A stretch of DNA of 27,595 nt from Desulfohalobiaceae bacterium (GTDB lineage: Bacteria > Desulfobacterota > Desulfovibrionia > Desulfovibrionales > Desulfothermaceae). The notes below the pieces were generated by a model. It saw only the letters and a list, made by a program, of their open reading frames with translations, was not told where the DNA came from and ran no database searches. The DNA lies in contig JAIPER010000001.1 in assembly GCA_021737115.1 (NCBI GenBank), positions 1 to 27,595 of the forward strand. The letters run 5' to 3'. Positions 1-5,346 of this stretch are shown piece after piece. The stretch's first letter is position 1. Each line of letters begins with the position of its first letter. The translations under genes and the position numbers were made by a program.

Positions 1-944
1 TTGAGCATGGCCTTGTTGGTCTGGGTGTAGTCCTCGCCCTTGTAGTTGGTGGCCTTGGCCTTGAAGAGCAGGAACCAGGCACCGACAGGGCCGTAGCCGT
101 CCTTGAACCGGGCCGGGACGAACCTGTTTTCCATCATGGTCATTTCCGCGCCGACCTGGGCGCACATGGTGTAGGTGGAACCGGCGTTCCAGACCGGATA
201 CCAGGCCCGGCCCATGCCTTCGCCGGTGGAGCGGGGCCTGAAGACGTTGACCGCACCGCCGCAGGCCACGATCATGCCCTTGGCCTTGAAGGTGTAGACC
301 TTGTTTTCCCGGACCGAGAAGCCGACTGCTCCGGCCACTCGGTTAGGTTCGTTGGCGTCCAGGAGCAGCTTGACCACGAAGACCCTTTCCAGATAGCGGT
401 CTTCGCCCAGGGCGTTCTTGGCGGCCTCGGCCACGATGACCTTGTAGGATTCACCGTTGATCATGCACTGCCAGCGACCGGAGCGGACCACATCGGCCCC
501 TTCCCGGACCTTCAGGCCTTCGGACTGGGCCTTGGCCCCGTCCAGGTTCTTGCCGTCCTTGCTGACCCAGATGGGCAGTCCCCACTCTTCGAAGAGGTGG
601 ACGGAGTCGTCCACGTGCCGGCCCAGGTCGAAGATCAGATCTTCCCGGACGACGTGCATCAGGTCGGTGCGGACCATGCGCACGTAGTCGTCGGGCTCGT
701 TCTTGCCGAGATAGGTGTTGATGGCCGAAAGTCCCGGAGCCACGGCGCCGGAGCGTTCCAGGGCGGCTTTGTCCACGAGCAGAACCTTGACGCCGTACTT
801 GTCTCCCCAGCGAACCGCTTCCACCGCGGCGCCGGTGCAGCCCATGCCACCGCCGATAAGCAGGGCGTCGGTTTCCACTTCCACGACTTCCGGTTCAGCC
901 AGAGGCAGACCTGTGGTTACGTTCTTAGTTGGTATCTGAGGCAT
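1..944 (-). CDS. aprA: Adenylylsulfate (APS) reductase alpha subunit, N-terminal ~314 codons; gene continues beyond the left edge
   Basis: Own translation from ATG at 944 (RBS GGAG upstream): MPQIPTKN...LLIGGGMG...ERSGAVAPGLSAINTY...REDLIFDLGRHVDDSVHLFEEWGLP...RSGRWQCMINGESYK...GRAWYPVWNAGS...MMENRFVPARFKDGYGPVGAWFLLFKAK. These are hallmark AprA motifs. Absent from the ORF track because there is no stop in the window. Confidence 0.98.
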   Translation of the reverse strand, partial: MPQIPTKNVTTGLPLAEPEVVEVETDALLIGGGMGCTGAAVEAVRWGDKYGVKVLLVDKAALERSGAVAPGLSAINTYLGKNEPDDYVRMVRTDLMHVVREDLIFDLGRHVDDSVHLFEEWGLPIWVSKDGKNLDGAKAQSEGLKVREGADVVRSGRWQCMINGESYKVIVAEAAKNALGEDRYLERVFVVKLLLDANEPNRVAGAVGFSVRENKVYTFKAKGMIVACGGAVNVFRPRSTGEGMGRAWYPVWNAGSTYTMCAQVGAEMTMMENRFVPARFKDGYGPVGAWFLLFKAKATNYKGEDYTQTNKAML

Positions 945-1014
945 ATATCACTCCTTTTCAAAGTTGTTCCATCGGTTCAGGTGTTCGCAACCAGCAAAAA
1001 TAAAGCGGTCAGGC

Positions 1015-1488
1015 TTAGATGACTTCGGTATAATCCGCATCCTGGATGTCCACTTTTTTGTTCAGGACTTCCTTGGGGGGCTTCAATTCCTTCTCATTGA
1101 AAAACAGTCCGCTTTCCAGATCATCGGCTTCGGGTTTGCCCTCAAAAGGCTGGATGGATCCCTCCGGAGTGGTCCGGATGGGGAATTTGAAGCGTTTGAC
1201 TTCACCGGACCGGAACTGGATGGTCCACATGATGTCCTCGGCGCTGCGCAGGGGAATGCTGGTCCCGCCCATGGGGGCGAAGTCGGCATAGGGCCTGGCG
1301 GTGATAGCGCCCTGGGGGCAGATCTTGATGCAGGAGTAGCACTCCCAGCACTGATCCGGTTCCAGGTTGTAGGCCTTCATCTCTTTTTCATCCAGGATCA
1401 TGAGGTCATTGGGGCAGATGTACAAGCAGGCTGTTTTTTCTCCGCCTTTGCAACCGTCACATTTTTCCGGATTAACATAACTAGGCAT
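1015..1488 (-). CDS. aprB: APS reductase beta subunit (2x[4Fe-4S])
   Basis: CDGCKGGEKTAC-YICP and CWECYSCIKICP cluster motifs, plus RPYADFAP and RFKFPIRTTPEGSI; RBS GAAGGAGG; directly upstream of aprA. Confidence 0.98.
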   Translation of the reverse strand: MPSYVNPEKCDGCKGGEKTACLYICPNDLMILDEKEMKAYNLEPDQCWECYSCIKICPQGAITARPYADFAPMGGTSIPLRSAEDIMWTIQFRSGEVKRFKFPIRTTPEGSIQPFEGKPEADDLESGLFFNEKELKPPKEVLNKKVDIQDADYTEVI

Positions 1489-1543
1489 TGTGAATCCTCC
1501 TTCAAACAGGTTTGTTGGAATTGGGTTTTACAGTGATATATTC

Positions 1544-1567
1544 AAAAAGCGGCAGAAAAACCGCTTG
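1544..1567 (-). terminator. Weak candidate intrinsic terminator or attenuator between the small ORF and aprB
   Basis: AAGCGG-N8-CCGCTT stem followed on the minus strand by a short T run; only a 6-bp stem. Confidence 0.25.
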
Positions 1568-1620
1568 TTAACGAATGGACCGCTCCAACCGGAGGCAGGC
1601 CCCCGCGGTGGTTGTAGCCC

Positions 1621-1917
1621 TTACGAGAACTCCTTCAACACATCCGAGACAACGTCCAGACTCTGTTTTTCCACCACCTTATCGTAGAGCCTGTGCTTGA
1701 CCTCCTTGGGAAGGAGTTCGATGCTTCCGGTGGTGGAAGTATCGTGCTTGGCTCCGAATTTGTCGACAAAGGTCTTGGCCTGTTCGTCGTCGGCGTAGAC
1801 AACCAGAACCTTCAATCCGGCCAGCCGTTCCTCGGTGTGATGAGCCAGGCCGGCCTTTTCCAGCTCTGCGTATCGTTCCTGATTGACCCAGACATAAATC
1901 GGGTTTTTCCCTGCCAT
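1621..1917 (-). CDS. Hypothetical 98-aa protein between sat and aprB
   Basis: Strong RBS (GGAGG, 8-nt spacing), GC3-rich codon usage like its neighbours, co-oriented inside the operon; family not recognised. Confidence 0.88.
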   Translation of the reverse strand: MAGKNPIYVWVNQERYAELEKAGLAHHTEERLAGLKVLVVYADDEQAKTFVDKFGAKHDTSTTGSIELLPKEVKHRLYDKVVEKQSLDVVSDVLKEFS

Positions 1918-2027
1918 ACGTGTTACCTCCTCATTGGGACTCTGGAAAATGCATGATCATTTCCCTGAATCTGTTTTCCTTGTGTGCTCTTTTCGACCCG
2001 GGCCGCCATCTGCTCATCTGATATGAG

Positions 2028-3281
2028 TTAGAGGGGTTCGATATTAAAGACCGGGGTTCTCTTTTCCAGGTATTCCTCGGTGACAAAGGGCGAGCCCTCG
2101 CCGTACTTTTCGGCACACGCCATGATCTGATCGAAGACTTCCGGCCTGATGATCAACCTGGGCGGCTTGACCCCGTCGGTGACGATGCTCCTGATCAGGG
2201 TGCCGCTGAACTTCTGTTGCTCGTCCTTGTGGTTGCAGAGACCCTCGCTGGTGATTTCGGCACAGACCGGGCAGTAGAGCCAGTTCATGGAATAGACCGG
2301 AGTGATGTCCAGCTCTTTGCCGACAGTATCCAGGAGATGGTGGGCCTCGTAGGCGCCGTAGTAGTCCCCGACCCCGGCATGGTCCCGTCCGTACATGTGG
2401 TGGGTGATGCCCAGGTTGGCCCGCAATATGGCATGGAAAATGGCTTCCTTGGGTCCGGCATAGCGCATGTCCCAGAAGGTCAGAGAGGTCAGGTGGTTGT
2501 GCGGACCGAAGTAGCCTGCCTTTTCCAGTTCGTCCTGGCAGAGGATAATGGCTTCGTCAATGTAGTCCTTGACCCGCTTTTCGCCGATGATCGCGTTGAC
2601 CACCACGCCCACTTCGGGTTTTTCAATGGGCAGATCGCCGTACGTCTGGAAAAAGGCGCCCTTCATCAGCCATTCGTGACCGGTGTGGGGCACGTTTCTG
2701 GTCTGATGGGCCACGGTCCGGTTCCAGCCCTTTTCCTTGATGATGGACCGCATCTTTAGCGGGGGCAGAAAATAGGGTCCAAAGGGCTCGTTGATTTTGG
2801 GTTCCTTGAGCAGAGTGATCTTTCCGGCCACGAACTTGTCTTTGTAACTGTAGGTCCGGGCGCAGCCGGGGTGCTTCTCCTCGGTGGTTCCCAGCACGGC
2901 CTGGCAGATGGCTGCCTTGTCGTACTCGAAGACTTCGCTGACCTCGAAGAGGGCCATGGGGTTGTCCTGGTAGTTGAGCACTACCGATGTTCCCGGTTTG
3001 ACACCGTAGTTTTGTACTTCCTCTTGGGAAAGATCAAAGAGAATGGGGATGGGCCAGATGGTGCCGTCGGCAAGACGCATGTTCTTGACCACGGCTTCGA
3101 CATCTTCCTTGCCCATGAATCCTTCCAGGGGGCTGAACCAGCCGTAGGCAAGATTGATGATTTCATTGGCGATCTGTTTGCGGACCGGAACCTGGGTCAA
3201 CCCCTTGATCTTTTCCTTGGCCTCAGCCGGCTTCATGATTCTTTCCTGGATCTCTTTCCCGCCATGTCCTATCTCAGCCAT
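2028..3281 (-). CDS. sat: Sulfate adenylyltransferase (ATP sulfurylase), Archaeoglobus-like type
   Basis: HGG N-terminus, FSPLEGFM, AHQTRNVPHTGHE (QxRN/HxxH), DMRYAGPKEAIFHAILR, GRDHAGVG, YCPVC...CNH Zn site, FSGT; RBS GGAG. Confidence 0.97.
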   Translation of the reverse strand: MAEIGHGGKEIQERIMKPAEAKEKIKGLTQVPVRKQIANEIINLAYGWFSPLEGFMGKEDVEAVVKNMRLADGTIWPIPILFDLSQEEVQNYGVKPGTSVVLNYQDNPMALFEVSEVFEYDKAAICQAVLGTTEEKHPGCARTYSYKDKFVAGKITLLKEPKINEPFGPYFLPPLKMRSIIKEKGWNRTVAHQTRNVPHTGHEWLMKGAFFQTYGDLPIEKPEVGVVVNAIIGEKRVKDYIDEAIILCQDELEKAGYFGPHNHLTSLTFWDMRYAGPKEAIFHAILRANLGITHHMYGRDHAGVGDYYGAYEAHHLLDTVGKELDITPVYSMNWLYCPVCAEITSEGLCNHKDEQQKFSGTLIRSIVTDGVKPPRLIIRPEVFDQIMACAEKYGEGSPFVTEEYLEKRTPVFNIEPL

Positions 3282-3457
3282 GTGCAGTCTCCTTTGGGTT
3301 ATACGTTTGTACCTGCTTCCACAATTTTCGAAAAAAAAGCATTGCCGTTACAGTCTTCAGGGTCTTTGCTGTTTTAAAGCATGTAGTCTTTTGAAAATAA
3401 TGTATAAACAATAACAAAAGAGTTGTTACGTTTGGCTGCCGTCAGAAGGTGAAAAAC

Positions 3458-3486
3458 ACTTTGTGAAATTTTTATCAAGTTGTCAA
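3458..3486 (-). promoter_or_regulatory. Candidate sigma70 promoter of sat with a Rex-type operator in the spacer
   Basis: Minus-strand TTGACA (3486-3481), 17 nt, then CAAAGT (weak -10). TTGTGAAATTTTTATCAA (3461-3478) matches the Rex palindrome TTGTGAA-N4-TTCACAA at 12/14. Rex control of sat is established in Desulfovibrio. Confidence 0.55.
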
Positions 3487-3711
3487 GAAAAAAGATCAAA
3501 CTTCCTGCAGCCGGGGTCATCAGGGCGATTTCCTGCTCCTTTTGAACCCTGTCTGCCTTTGCCTGTCTTGCCTTGAGGCTCCTGTTTACGATACTTTTAT
3601 TTTCCCGTAAACAGATATTCGGTTTGTGACCACGGTCTGGCAAAGCAAAGGCTCAAATCGGATACCGAGCCGGGAATCCCTTTCATTTATAGTACAAAGA
3701 GAAACAAACAC

Positions 3712-5346
3712 ATGTCGGAAAAAAAACACGGTCCTGATAAAGGCAGGTCCCTGACCTCGGAAATCGAGGAAATGGATGGGGCGTTGATACGGCTTCTTGG
3801 AAAGCGGAGTAGACTGCTCAGCAAGGCAGCGGGGTCCAGGAAACAGAAAAAGAAGTCTCTGGTGGATCCTGCACAGGAAAAACAGCTCTGGCAGAACTGG
3901 CGCACCCAGGCCGAAACCCAGGGCCTGGATGAACGGATGATGCACAGCCTGTTTCATCTGGTCAACGGGCTCGGCTATGAACGTCTTGAGAAAAAACAGG
4001 ACTGGGAGCTCGAGTTGCGGCCAAGCCCGGAACCGGTCCGGATGGACCTTCCCGGTCCCACAGACATTCTGCTTTCCAGAATGTGGGTTTTCCTGGGGGC
4101 GGCTGCCGGGGCGCCGCTTATGCTCTCCGAAGTGGTTCTGAACGATCCTCTCTTCGAGCTTATCAAGGGGTTGAATCAGGCCGGTGGTACCTTTTTCTGG
4201 GAAAAAGACCGGGTTTCCTGCCGGGGCGACCAGGATCTCGATTTTGATCGGAAAACCGTTTTTGTTGGGCAAGATCCGTTCAACCTCTACCTCTTGATCT
4301 TCCTGGCGGCGATGAAGCCCGGGGTTTGCCGCTTTTCAGGGGGAAGCCGACTCAAGTTGATCGACGTCAGACCGGTGGAGGGGATCGTCCGGGCCCTGGG
4401 GGGGAGGATGATCAGCCTCGTCCCCGGGAGCCGAGGCCTGCCTGTCCGCCTGGAGTCGAGCGGCAGGATCGATGCACGTCTGGACCTCCCCCCTGATGCC
4501 TCCGCAGATATGGTCAAGGCACTGGTTTTGACCCTGGGGGCGACCCTAAAACCGGGAGCCGAGGTCTTGTTGAATCAAAAAGAGGCCGGGGGTCTGCCTT
4601 TGGATTTGTCCAGGGTCTTCAGGGTCCTCACGGCTTGGGGGGGACGATTCCGGCAACAGGAGCAGGGTTGGATGATCACGGGTGGGCCCCTGAGCATCCC
4701 CGAGCGTCCCTCGCTTCCGCTGGATCCTGTCTTTTGCGGATACCTGCTGGCCATGGCCTTTGTGAGCCGGGGCAAGGCCGCTATCCAGGGGGAGTTTCCC
4801 CTGGACCTGCCGGAAAGCGGGCCGGTTTTGGAGCTTTTTGAAAAACTGGGCCTGGAGGTCACGGTTGAGGCCACGGGGATCAAGGGGAAGTTCTCCAGGG
4901 AGGAGGCGATTTCACTGTCCATCGATACCAGAGGAAATCCCTGGCTTTTGCCCCTCGCCCTGGCCCAGGCTCTTAGCAGGCAGGGAGAAGCTGAGCTCGT
5001 GGTTTTTCCTGGAGAGGATCTGGATTTTGCCCTCGTCCTCCTGGACAGTCTGGGGGCTGCCTACAGCCTGAGCGAGGACCGGCTTTTGATCCAAAACGGA
5101 CTCGACCTGCACAACTGTCCGCAGTTGAAAATGTCGACGCTTCATCCCTGGTGGAGCATGGCTCTGGCGGTCATGGCCCTGAAGCGGCCCGGGCTGGCGG
5201 TCAAGAATCCCGGGGAATTGACCCGGCTCTGGCCTCAGTTCTGGTCTCTTTTCAAGGGATTGCCGGATCCAGGGAGAGTCCGGGAAACAAATGGCTCCAG
5301 GGCGGACAGTCAGGGAAGAAGGAAAATGAGAAAGAAGGTATCCTGA
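3712..5346 (+). CDS. Chorismate mutase (AroQ)-like N-terminal domain fused to an EPSP synthase (AroA)-like domain with degenerate catalytic motifs
   Basis: EIEEMDGALIRLLGKRSRLL resembles AroQ helix 1. The remainder follows AroA motif order (RP..G..RALG, LP.D, MALA, KNP...TRLWPQFW) but lacks SKS, GNSGT, SSQ and DHR. Confidence 0.8.
   Translation: MSEKKHGPDKGRSLTSEIEEMDGALIRLLGKRSRLLSKAAGSRKQKKKSLVDPAQEKQLWQNWRTQAETQGLDERMMHSLFHLVNGLGYERLEKKQDWELELRPSPEPVRMDLPGPTDILLSRMWVFLGAAAGAPLMLSEVVLNDPLFELIKGLNQAGGTFFWEKDRVSCRGDQDLDFDRKTVFVGQDPFNLYLLIFLAAMKPGVCRFSGGSRLKLIDVRPVEGIVRALGGRMISLVPGSRGLPVRLESSGRIDARLDLPPDASADMVKALVLTLGATLKPGAEVLLNQKEAGGLPLDLSRVFRVLTAWGGRFRQQEQGWMITGGPLSIPERPSLPLDPVFCGYLLAMAFVSRGKAAIQGEFPLDLPESGPVLELFEKLGLEVTVEATGIKGKFSREEAISLSIDTRGNPWLLPLALAQALSRQGEAELVVFPGEDLDFALVLLDSLGAAYSLSEDRLLIQNGLDLHNCPQLKMSTLHPWWSMALAVMALKRPGLAVKNPGELTRLWPQFWSLFKGLPDPGRVRETNGSRADSQGRRKMRKKVS

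What the first reader, a model, noticed from the sequence alone, without database searches (positions are those of the whole stretch)
1..3281. Mosaic sulfate-activation operon: Archaeoglobus-type Sat, a small unknown gene and divergent Desulfovibrio-type AprBA
Seen: order sat-ORF98-aprB-aprA, co-oriented. Sat has AHQTRNVPHxGHE, VNAIIGEKR, DEAI, WDMRY, HHMYGRDHA and QKFSG. Established knowledge (from memory): these motifs characterise Archaeoglobus fulgidus Sat, whereas canonical Desulfovibrio Sat has ALQLRNPMHRSHE, and A. fulgidus also has a small ORF between sat and aprB. AprA carries the NLDGAKA insertion and AprB the GGEKTAC motif of Desulfovibrio-like enzymes. Inference: a chimeric, possibly second or specialised APS module, for example for reverse flux during sulfite/thiosulfate disproportionation or a different oxyanion, assembled by lateral transfer. 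This is my best candidate for an undescribed system in the window.
Basis: partly seen in the sequence, partly recalled or inferred. Interest (0 to 1): 0.75.

Follow-up and report, generated by a model that had tools for sequence, protein, structure and literature searches.

The report
Routine sulfate-respiration operon with swapped sat module
This is the ordinary, single sulfate-respiration operon of a salt-loving Desulfohalobiaceae bacterium; its only unusual point is that the sulfate-activating gene and a small unstudied partner gene have a different ancestry from the APS reductase genes beside them.

Summary

The reading is only partly right. The ORF is not unknown: it belongs to Pfam DUF6955. 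The locus is not a second or special module. The same sat-DUF6955-aprB-aprA order, followed by qmoA-qmoB, is seen across the Desulfohalobiaceae genomes and loci examined. The only other Sat in this genome is a Sat/APS-kinase fusion next to cysQ.

The mosaic is real at order level. AprA and AprB of all Desulfovibrionales group together. Sat does not (AU p = 3e-56). The seven other families sampled carry an LQLRNPMHRSHE-type Sat without DUF6955. This family carries the HQTRNVPHxGHE type with DUF6955.

The window's Sat is 73-89% identical to Desulfobacterales, Syntrophobacterales and Nitrospirota enzymes but only 37% identical to the Archaeoglobus fulgidus enzyme.

DUF6955 lies directly after this Sat type wherever the contig allows a check (78 of 78 named loci, 34 of 34 in the phylum sample). 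A complex prediction gave weak support for binding.

Earlier work in this scan had already noted the DUF6955-Sat link on other DNA (e1-2409827, e1-2506244).

The parts
2028..3281 (-). sat: homo-oligomeric, zinc-site-type ATP sulfurylase (417 aa), Sat clade A
   Evidence: PF14306 and PF01747, NF003166 at 462 bits. The Cys337/Cys340/Cys349/His351 site is invariant in the 44-row alignment A2. The best solved relatives are 8A8D and 1V47.
1621..1917 (-). DUF6955 small protein (98 aa, no Cys), the constant downstream neighbour of clade A and A' sat
   Evidence: PF22271 at 81.7 bits against a cut-off of 27. It is adjacent to sat in 78 of 78 checkable named loci, next to 34 of 34 Sat hits of the phylum sample and in 23 of 24 family genomes. 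The model has pLDDT 94.4 and no solved fold relative. The complex prediction with Sat gave weak support.
1015..1488 (-). aprB: APS reductase iron-sulfur subunit (157 aa)
   Evidence: TIGR02060 at 231.8 bits against a cut-off of 135.65. It matches D. gigas 3GYX_B at 274.8 bits. In the AprB tree all Desulfovibrionales rows lie on one side of a branch, support 93.8.
3..944 (-). aprA: N-terminal 314 residues of the APS reductase flavoprotein, cut by the contig end
   Evidence: It matches TIGR02061 positions 1-275 at 480 bits and 3GYX_A at 539.6 bits. It is 98% identical to the full 665-aa gene of a same-genus genome, which scores 1057.6 bits. The C-terminal half is not in this assembly.

Best explanation
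The stretch is the promoter-proximal part of the one dissimilatory sulfate-reduction operon of an uncultured Desulfohalobiaceae bacterium (order Desulfovibrionales). The operon is sat-DUF6955-aprB-aprA, and in relatives it continues with qmoA-qmoB. Sat makes APS from sulfate and ATP. AprBA reduces APS to sulfite with electrons from Qmo. This is the canonical pathway, inferred here from family membership and not assayed. The operon is a phylogenetic mosaic. aprBA is inherited vertically within Desulfovibrionales. sat travels as a fixed two-gene unit with DUF6955 and belongs to the Sat clade shared with Desulfobacteria, Syntrophobacteria, Desulfarculaceae, Desulfomonilaceae, Nitrospirota and, more distantly, Thermodesulfobacteria and Archaeoglobaceae. 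The seven other Desulfovibrionales families sampled have an unrelated Sat clade, without DUF6955, at the same position upstream of aprB. The most parsimonious history is that the Desulfohalobiaceae lineage replaced its sat in place with a sat-DUF6955 unit. That unit was later exchanged among hypersaline-habitat lineages. This history is inference. DUF6955 is most likely a small accessory protein that binds Sat beside its active site, at the zinc loop and helix 12. This rests on gene linkage plus a weak structural prediction and is not shown.
For: Identity and order of the genes. The nearest relatives are Desulfohalobiaceae MAGs at 94-96% Sat identity. Routine in the family: 23 of 24 family genomes have sat directly followed by DUF6955, with aprB-aprA next wherever the contig allows. 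qmoA-qmoB follow aprA in 10 Desulfohalobiaceae loci with enough flank. Sole locus: the only other Sat is a 589-aa Sat/APS kinase (NF004040, 811 bits) beside cysQ, and no second aprA was found in this genome. Mosaic: the Sat tree has two deep clades, each with support 100. Holding Desulfovibrionales Sat together as one clade is rejected (lnL difference 1560, p-AU 3e-56). In the AprA tree all 57 Desulfovibrionales rows form one clade (support 100) and the main copies of the family form another (support 98). AprB agrees. Genomes whose Sat is 73-77% identical to the window's have AprA only 62-65% identical, whereas same-order genomes with 34-39% Sat have AprA 74-84% identical. The other families of the order have sat-aprB-aprA with no DUF6955. 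DUF6955 as a unit with Sat. The short and long DUF6955 subtypes track Sat subclades A and A'. Complex prediction: weak support, score 0.44 against a best control of 0.00. In the tool's calibration the mark was reached by 58 of 80 solved complexes and 2 of 110 mismatched pairs. Scores of 0.60 or under were reached by only 7 of those 80 solved complexes and by both mismatches. The interface includes invariant DUF6955 residues R15 and G34.
Against: The genome is an 86%-complete MAG. The aprA 3' half, a true qmoA and dsrA are absent from the assembly, so a second aprBA cannot be excluded. Seven other genomes of the family, two of them same-genus, do have an aprBA paralog. The direction of the sat replacement is not established, because the trees are unrooted and I used AprA as a stand-in for a species tree. 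The binding prediction is weak by the tool's own calibration and used my own alignments. A third DUF6955 subgroup is not next to sat; two of the three examples examined lie near dsrAB-like genes, so DUF6955 may not be exclusively a Sat partner. No Sat-DUF6955 fusion protein was found: 77 family clusters, the longest 173 aa. No expression data were available.
Confidence: 0.75

Rival explanations
1. Ancestral retention. The sat-DUF6955-aprBA arrangement is the ancestral state of Desulfovibrionales, and the other families replaced it with the LQLRNPMHRSHE-type Sat. On this view the window carries the original operon, not an acquired piece.
For: The sat-DUF6955 pair is very widespread. It occurs in several classes of the phylum, in Nitrospirota, Bacillota (Desulfofundulus, Ammonifex) and Archaeoglobaceae. 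The trees are unrooted.
Against: All seven other families of the order carry clade B Sat. In the AprA tree the family is nested among them, sister to family f7. Clade B Sat of the order groups with clade B Sat of families f20, f51, f69, f88, f44, f59 and f75, and the AprA of those same families is sister to Desulfovibrionales AprA. This suggests that clade B Sat and AprBA were co-inherited there. The family itself holds two different Sat subclades, A and A', and holding them together as one clade is rejected (p-AU 1.5e-4). At least one transfer is therefore needed in any case.
Confidence: 0.2
2. This is a second or specialised APS module, for example for reverse flux during sulfite or thiosulfate disproportionation, or for another oxyanion.
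For: The long (A') version of the module occurs in some named disproportionators, Thermosulfurimonas dismutans and Caldimicrobium thiodismutans. Some relatives have a second aprBA.
Against: It is the only dissimilatory-type sat and the only apr found in the genome. It is the family-wide arrangement and has qmoAB downstream. The same Sat clade serves classical sulfate reducers such as Desulfacinum, Thermodesulforhabdus, Desulfomonile, Desulfatibacillum and Desulfovermiculus. The catalytic motifs are the usual ones.
Confidence: 0.04
3. DUF6955 is a Sat-to-AprBA adaptor or APS-channelling factor and not a Sat-only accessory protein.
For: In this family and in Archaeoglobus it lies exactly between sat and aprB (PMC3949148 lists sat and aprAB as the four loci AF1667-AF1670). 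In some Syntrophobacterales loci the sat-DUF6955 pair lies between aprBA and qmoABC.
Against: It stays directly after sat in most named loci where aprBA is not adjacent. The control genome Sulfolobus acidocaldarius has both Sat and DUF6955 but no AprA hit above the family cut-off. I did not test binding to AprBA.
Confidence: 0.15
4. Assembly or binning artefact. On this view the contig wrongly joins a Desulfobacterales-like sat to a Desulfovibrionales aprBA.
For: The source is a fragmented MAG of 310 contigs.
Against: The same junction sat-DUF6955-aprB-aprA is assembled independently in more than 20 genomes of the family from different studies. Sat, DUF6955, AprB and AprA identities fall off together across them.
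Confidence: 0.01

Closest known systems
sat-ORF2-aprBA operon of Archaeoglobus fulgidus (AF1667-AF1670; PMC3949148)
   Same: The gene order is the same: sat, small ORF, aprB, aprA. An Archaeoglobaceae homologue of the small ORF is annotated as DUF6955. Sat has the same HQTRNVPHxGHE and zinc-site character.
   Different: Sat is only 37% identical to A. fulgidus O28606. The Archaeoglobaceae DUF6955 is of the long subtype, about 115 aa with a C-terminal extension. A. fulgidus AprA lacks the 19-residue insertion. In A. fulgidus qmoABC (AF0661-0663) lies elsewhere, whereas in this family it follows aprA.
sat-aprBA-qmoABC locus of Desulfovibrio and the other Desulfovibrionales families (AprBA structure: D. 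gigas 3GYX)
   Same: AprA and AprB are close relatives (539.6 and 274.8 bits to 3GYX) and lie in the same order-level clade. The position of sat upstream of aprB is the same, and qmo is downstream.
   Different: Sat belongs to a different deep clade, at 34-39% identity, with LQLRNPMHRSHE in place of HQTRNVPHTGHE. The Desulfovibrio-type locus has no DUF6955 gene.
sat-DUF6955 pairs of Desulfobacterales, Syntrophobacterales, Desulfomonilaceae and Nitrospirota (for example Thermodesulforhabdus norvegica and Desulfacinum infernum)
   Same: Sat is 73-89% identical and DUF6955 48-83% identical. DUF6955 starts within about 100 nt after sat.
   Different: In most of these loci aprBA does not follow. 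The pair stands alone, lies after qmoABC, or lies between aprBA and qmoABC. Where AprA was sampled in genomes with this Sat type it is only 62-65% identical to the window's.
Zinc-binding ATP sulfurylases with solved structures: Methanothermococcus thermolithotrophicus 8A8D and Thermus thermophilus 1V47
   Same: These are the best solved matches (294 and 221 bits). They share the QTRNVPH or QTRNAPH motif, GRDHAG, and a Cys/His zinc site in domain III.
   Different: The solved chains are Sat alone. Whether those organisms encode a DUF6955 partner was not examined here.
DsrD, the small protein encoded beside dsrAB (an analogy only, from my own knowledge)
   Same: Both are small, cofactor-free proteins encoded next to a core enzyme of sulfate respiration.
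   Different: There is no sequence or fold relation. The DUF6955 model matches no solved fold. No biochemical data exist for DUF6955.

Membership tests
Canonical dissimilatory sat-aprBA-qmo locus | Sat with a PUA-like domain, an ATP-sulfurylase domain and the catalytic HxxH and GRDHAG motifs | tested here: met
   PF14306 and PF01747; NF003166 at 462 bits against a cut-off of 387. The motifs are present.
Canonical dissimilatory sat-aprBA-qmo locus | AprB equivalog | tested here: met
   TIGR02060 at 231.8 bits against a cut-off of 135.65.
Canonical dissimilatory sat-aprBA-qmo locus | Full-length AprA equivalog | tested here: inconclusive
   Only 314 residues lie in the window. They score 480 bits against a cut-off of 641.75 because of the truncation. 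The same-genus ortholog, 98% identical, scores 1057.6 bits. The rest of the gene is not in this assembly.
Canonical dissimilatory sat-aprBA-qmo locus | qmoABC as the electron-donor module, adjacent or elsewhere in the genome | tested here: inconclusive
   The contig ends inside aprA, and no true qmoA is in this assembly; the best hits are HdrA-like at 34-35%. qmoA-qmoB follow aprA in 10 Desulfohalobiaceae loci.
Canonical dissimilatory sat-aprBA-qmo locus | dsrAB present in the same genome | tested here: inconclusive
   TIGR02064 was not found in this genome, which is 86% complete in 310 contigs. Absence from an incomplete MAG does not show absence from the organism.
Pfam DUF6955 (PF22271) | Score above the Pfam gathering threshold over the whole model | tested here: met
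   81.7 bits against a cut-off of 27, covering model positions 2-91 of 91. The source databases name the homologues 'DUF6955 family protein'.
Archaeoglobus-type Sat module in the narrow sense | Sat and the small ORF are closest to the Archaeoglobus versions | tested here: not met
   Sat is 37% identical to O28606 but 73-89% identical to bacterial clade A Sat. The window's DUF6955 is 18-32% identical to the long subtype, and the Archaeoglobaceae protein was recovered with a long-subtype query at 50% identity.
Desulfovibrio-type Sat (clade B) | The LQLRNPMHRSHE motif and placement in clade B | tested here: not met
   The window has VAHQTRNVPHTGHE and lies in the opposite deep clade. The AU test rejects one Desulfovibrionales Sat clade.
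Zinc-site ATP sulfurylase subgroup | A three-Cys, one-His site in domain III | tested here: met
   C337, C340, C349 and H351 are invariant in the 44 clade A and A' sequences. Metal binding itself was not tested.

The most novel reading that the evidence does not exclude
DUF6955 is an obligatory small subunit or allosteric partner of the zinc-type ATP sulfurylase. It docks on the zinc loop and helix 12 beside the ATP/APS site and tunes the thermodynamically difficult sulfate-activation step. If so, the textbook sulfate-respiration pathway of most non-Desulfovibrio sulfate reducers, and of Archaeoglobus, contains an unrecognised protein component. Swapping the sat-DUF6955 unit as a whole would then explain why the two genes always move together.
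Probability: 0.35. Interest if true: 0.7.

Novelty: new member of a known kind. Interest (0 to 1): 0.33.

Why it matters
As first framed, an undescribed chimeric APS system, the finding does not hold. This is the standard sulfate-respiration operon of its family, so it should not be taken forward as a new system.

Two smaller points remain.

First, within one order the sulfate-activating enzyme has been replaced in place, upstream of a vertically inherited aprBA, and more than once:
- clade A Sat in the halophilic genera;
- clade A' Sat in genera g3 and g8, whose small ORFs are most like those of Desulfothermus and other thermophiles;
- a secondary transfer into Desulfonatronovibrionaceae-like MAGs.

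Because of this, sat is an unreliable taxonomic marker for sulfate reducers in metagenomes, whereas aprBA behaves well.

Second, DUF6955 has been visible since the Archaeoglobus operon was sequenced, and I found no paper that uses the family name. It is welded to one of the two major Sat clades across bacteria and archaea. It is therefore a cheap and well-defined target for biochemistry on how sulfate activation is controlled.

Tried and rejected
- Fold assignment for DUF6955. The model is confident (pLDDT 94.4). Foldseek against the PDB gave nothing below E = 1. VIA-align over 48,161 chains gave a best Z of 2.9. AlphaFold DB clusters returned only its own uncharacterised family. The ESM Atlas feature search scored 0.81 or less and gave no lead.
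- Search for a Sat-DUF6955 fusion. A profile search of 1.84 billion representative proteins found only 77 clusters, all 36-173 aa, and no fusion.
- Literature. No paper contains 'DUF6955'. The evolution papers I read treat Sat phylogeny as unclear and do not mention the small ORF. The A. vinosum Sat paper describes the zinc site and helix 12 but no partner protein.
- Expression. Only DNA runs hold this stretch, so co-transcription could not be checked, and I did not use read laying.
- Completing the operon in the window's own genome. The aprA 3' half, a true qmoA and dsrA are not in the assembly.
- A partner for the second aprBA paralog seen in relatives. In one genome it is followed by genes for an iron-sulfur protein, an NrfD-like membrane protein and a multihaem cytochrome. 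In a same-genus genome the neighbours are unrelated. I therefore dropped the idea of a conserved alternative electron module.
- Promoter and terminator scan of 1-3800. It found no terminator-like site on the minus strand between the four genes. The only promoter-like site on that strand lies inside the DUF6955 gene, so nothing can be concluded.
- Misassembly was considered and rejected, because the junction recurs in many independent assemblies.


Full report
**What is in the window.** The window is an entire 27,595-base contig (C218) of a 310-contig, 86%-complete MAG. Four ORFs lie on the minus strand at its left end: sat at 2028-3281 (417 aa), a 98-aa ORF at 1621-1917, aprB at 1015-1488 (157 aa), and the first 314 codons of aprA at 3-944, cut by the contig end. 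The gaps between them are 110, 132 and 70 nt.

Family scans agree with these names.
- Sat has PUA_2 and ATP-sulfurylase domains and scores 462 bits on NF003166.
- AprB scores 231.8 bits on TIGR02060.
- AprA covers positions 1-275 of TIGR02061 at 480 bits.
- The 98-aa ORF is a full-length member of Pfam DUF6955 (PF22271, 81.7 bits against a cut-off of 27). It belongs to a named family whose function is unknown.

NLDGAKA lies in a 19-residue stretch that D. gigas AprA has and A. fulgidus AprA lacks. GGEKTAC is identical in D. gigas AprB.

**Whose genome it is.** The closest loci are Desulfohalobiaceae MAGs, with Sat 94-96% identical. In a same-genus contig (L031) all four proteins are 96-98% identical. 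There aprA is complete at 665 aa (TIGR02061, 1057.6 bits) and is followed by two HdrA-like genes that I read as qmoA and qmoB.

**Is it a second or special module? No.**
- The only other Sat-like gene in the genome (contig C133) is a 589-aa bifunctional Sat/APS kinase (NF004040, 811 bits) next to cysQ. That is a PAPS-making pair, not a dissimilatory enzyme.
- No second aprA was found in the genome.
- In the window's own family, 23 of 24 other genomes have sat directly followed by DUF6955. The exception also lacks that sat.
- aprB-aprA come next wherever contigs permit.
- qmoA-qmoB follow aprA in all 10 Desulfohalobiaceae loci with enough flank.

One caveat applies. The aprA 3' half, a true qmoA and dsrA are missing from this assembly. 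These are assembly gaps, so absence of a further locus is not proven.

**Is it a mosaic? Yes, at the level of the order.** A Sat tree of 130 rows splits into two deep clades, each with support 100.
- Clade B holds every sampled genome of the seven other families of the order, plus many other families of the phylum. None of those genomes has DUF6955. Most of them have sat-aprB-aprA, with sat at the same place upstream of aprB.
- Clade A holds the window. It sits in a 38-row subclade (support 100) made of Desulfohalobiaceae genera g1, g2, g5, g6, g7 and g9, Desulfosalsimonas-like Desulfobacterales, and two MAGs labelled Desulfonatronovibrionaceae or Desulfovibrionales.

Forcing all Desulfovibrionales Sat into one clade costs 1560 log-likelihood units (p-AU 3e-56). 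Forcing the family's own Sat into one clade is also rejected (p-AU 1.5e-4). The reason is that two genera of the family (g3 and g8) carry a different subclade, A'.

AprA behaves differently. All 57 Desulfovibrionales rows form one clade (support 100). The main copies of the family, including g3 and g8, form another (support 98). AprB agrees: the order lies on one side of a branch, with support 93.8.

Identities tell the same story.
- Genomes whose Sat is 73-77% identical to the window's have AprA only 62-65% identical.
- Same-order genomes whose Sat is 34-39% identical have AprA 74-84% identical.

The two Desulfonatronovibrionaceae-labelled MAGs (L046, L052) have AprA grouping with family f2 but Sat and DUF6955 from the Desulfohalobiaceae subclade, again at the same locus. 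The sat unit has therefore been swapped in place more than once.

**How 'Archaeoglobus-type' is it?** Only loosely.
- A structure-based comparison with Swiss-Prot gives 37% identity to A. fulgidus Sat (O28606, 456 aa, TM 0.92). That is no closer than to other archaeal Sats.
- DUF6955 comes in a short form of about 97-105 aa, found with Sat clade A, and a long form of 115-134 aa with a C-terminal extension, found with clade A'.
- The long form is the one found in Desulfothermus, Thermodesulfobacteria, Thermosulfurimonas, Caldimicrobium, Ammonifex and an Archaeoglobaceae MAG.
- The literature lists A. fulgidus sat and aprAB as the four loci AF1667-AF1670, highly expressed (PMC3949148).

The Archaeoglobus-like version is therefore the A' module of the genera g3 and g8 of this family, not the window's.

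**DUF6955.** Its linkage to Sat is very tight.
- In 80 named loci found with the window's Sat, 78 have DUF6955 starting within about 100 nt downstream. The other two end at the contig edge.
- In an even sample of 200 further genomes of the phylum, all 34 Sat hits at 42% identity or more have DUF6955 adjacent. No hit at 38% or less does.
- The pair keeps together while its surroundings change. It is followed by aprBA in this family, stands alone in most Desulfobacterales loci, lies after qmoABC in L085 and L100, and lies between aprBA and qmoABC in L086 and L104.
- The control genome Sulfolobus acidocaldarius has Sat and DUF6955 but no AprA hit above the cut-off. This argues that the partner is Sat and not AprBA.

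The family is small and always free-standing: 77 clusters at 50% identity among 1.84 billion representatives, the longest 173 aa. The invariant residues are R15, G34, D59 and P70. The window's protein has no cysteine.

The AlphaFold model is confident (pLDDT 94.4, pTM 0.86, with an alternating strand and helix topology). It has no match among solved structures.

A complex prediction of Sat with DUF6955 gave weak support.
- The score was 0.44 against 0.00 for the best of three controls.
- In the tool's calibration the mark was reached by 58 of 80 solved complexes and 2 of 110 mismatched pairs.
- Scores of 0.60 or under were reached by only 7 of those 80 solved complexes and by both mismatches.
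- I supplied my own alignments, so these counts hold only roughly.

The predicted interface joins DUF6955 residues 8-15, 30-35, 68, 71 and 74-75 to Sat residue 200, residues 336 and 338, and positions scattered over 356-377. Residue 200 lies inside the HxGH motif. Residues 336 and 338 flank Cys337 of the zinc site. The 356-377 stretch covers the segment and helix that the A. vinosum Sat paper calls helix 12. That paper says it takes part in PPi binding and is contacted by the APS-kinase-like domain in fungal enzymes (PMC3779200).

My working model is that DUF6955 is a small accessory protein that binds beside the Sat active site and modulates or stabilises it. This is inference, and I put it at about 35-45%.

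A third DUF6955 subgroup is not next to sat. Two of the three examples examined lie within about 1.5 kb of dsrAB-like genes. The family may therefore have a wider role in this pathway.

**History.** All seven other families of the order have clade B Sat, and the family is nested among them in the AprA tree. Clade B Sat of the order also groups with clade B Sat of the same outside families whose AprA is sister to that of the order. The most parsimonious reading is that clade B was ancestral in Desulfovibrionales. On that reading the Desulfohalobiaceae lineage replaced it with a sat-DUF6955 unit, with at least one further replacement inside the family. The halophile subclade shared with Desulfosalsimonas-like organisms suggests exchange within hypersaline habitats. 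The trees are unrooted, so I give this about 65% and ancestral retention about 20%.

**Earlier notes of this scan.** Two followed-up findings on other DNA (e1-2409827 and e1-2506244) had already described DUF6955 as a conserved small partner of ATP sulfurylase. My counts confirm the linkage independently. They add the subtype-to-Sat-clade correspondence, the fold searches, the absence of fusions and the weak complex prediction.

**Verdict.** The locus is a new member of a known kind: the routine sat-DUF6955-aprBA-qmo operon of Desulfohalobiaceae. Its sat unit has a different ancestry from its aprBA. The only real unknown is the function of DUF6955.

Noticed in passing
L257-L263 (for example L258:5304-7858); not found in the window's genome: Seven Desulfohalobiaceae genomes, two of them same-genus, carry a second aprB-aprA pair. 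Its AprA is 69-71% identical to the window's and forms its own clade (support 100, long stem) inside the Desulfovibrionales AprA clade. In one genome it is followed by genes for an iron-sulfur protein, an NrfD-like membrane protein and a multihaem cytochrome c. In a same-genus genome the neighbours are unrelated.
   Followed up: partly
L267:4343-4666, L271:3601-3924, L268:3719-4051: A third DUF6955 subgroup (phylum families f49, f87, f59 and others) is not next to sat. In two loci it lies within about 1.5 kb of dsrAB-like sulfite reductase genes. In a third it lies between a YcaO gene and a DHDPS-family gene.
   Followed up: partly
L046, L052 and L034-L044: The window's Sat subclade unites Desulfohalobiaceae with Desulfosalsimonas-like Desulfobacterales and with two MAGs whose AprA groups with another Desulfovibrionales family (f2). 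This suggests exchange of the sat-DUF6955 unit among inhabitants of hypersaline sites.
   Followed up: partly
L019-L025 (family genera g3 and g8): Two genera of the same family carry the other module: clade A' Sat (42-44% identical to the window's, 450-480 aa as called) with the long DUF6955. The long DUF6955 of g3 is closest to that of Desulfothermus naphthae, Thermodesulfobacteria and Ca. Desulfofervidaceae. Their AprBA is nevertheless the family's own.
   Followed up: yes
L086, L104, L085, L100: In Syntrophobacterales-like and Desulfatibacillum-like loci the sat-DUF6955 pair lies between aprBA and qmoAB, or after qmoAB. The pair moves as a unit within the sulfate-reduction cluster.
   Followed up: partly
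G000 contig C133 (L002:69-2715): cysQ is followed by a 589-aa bifunctional Sat/APS kinase (NF004040, 811 bits). A second, weaker Sat-like hit in a 540-760-aa open frame is seen in nearly all relatives searched. The pair presumably makes PAPS for sulfation or assimilation.
   Followed up: yes
G000 as a whole: The assembly lacks the 3' half of aprA, a true qmoA and any dsrA hit, so core sulfate-respiration contigs are missing from this 86%-complete bin.
   Followed up: yes
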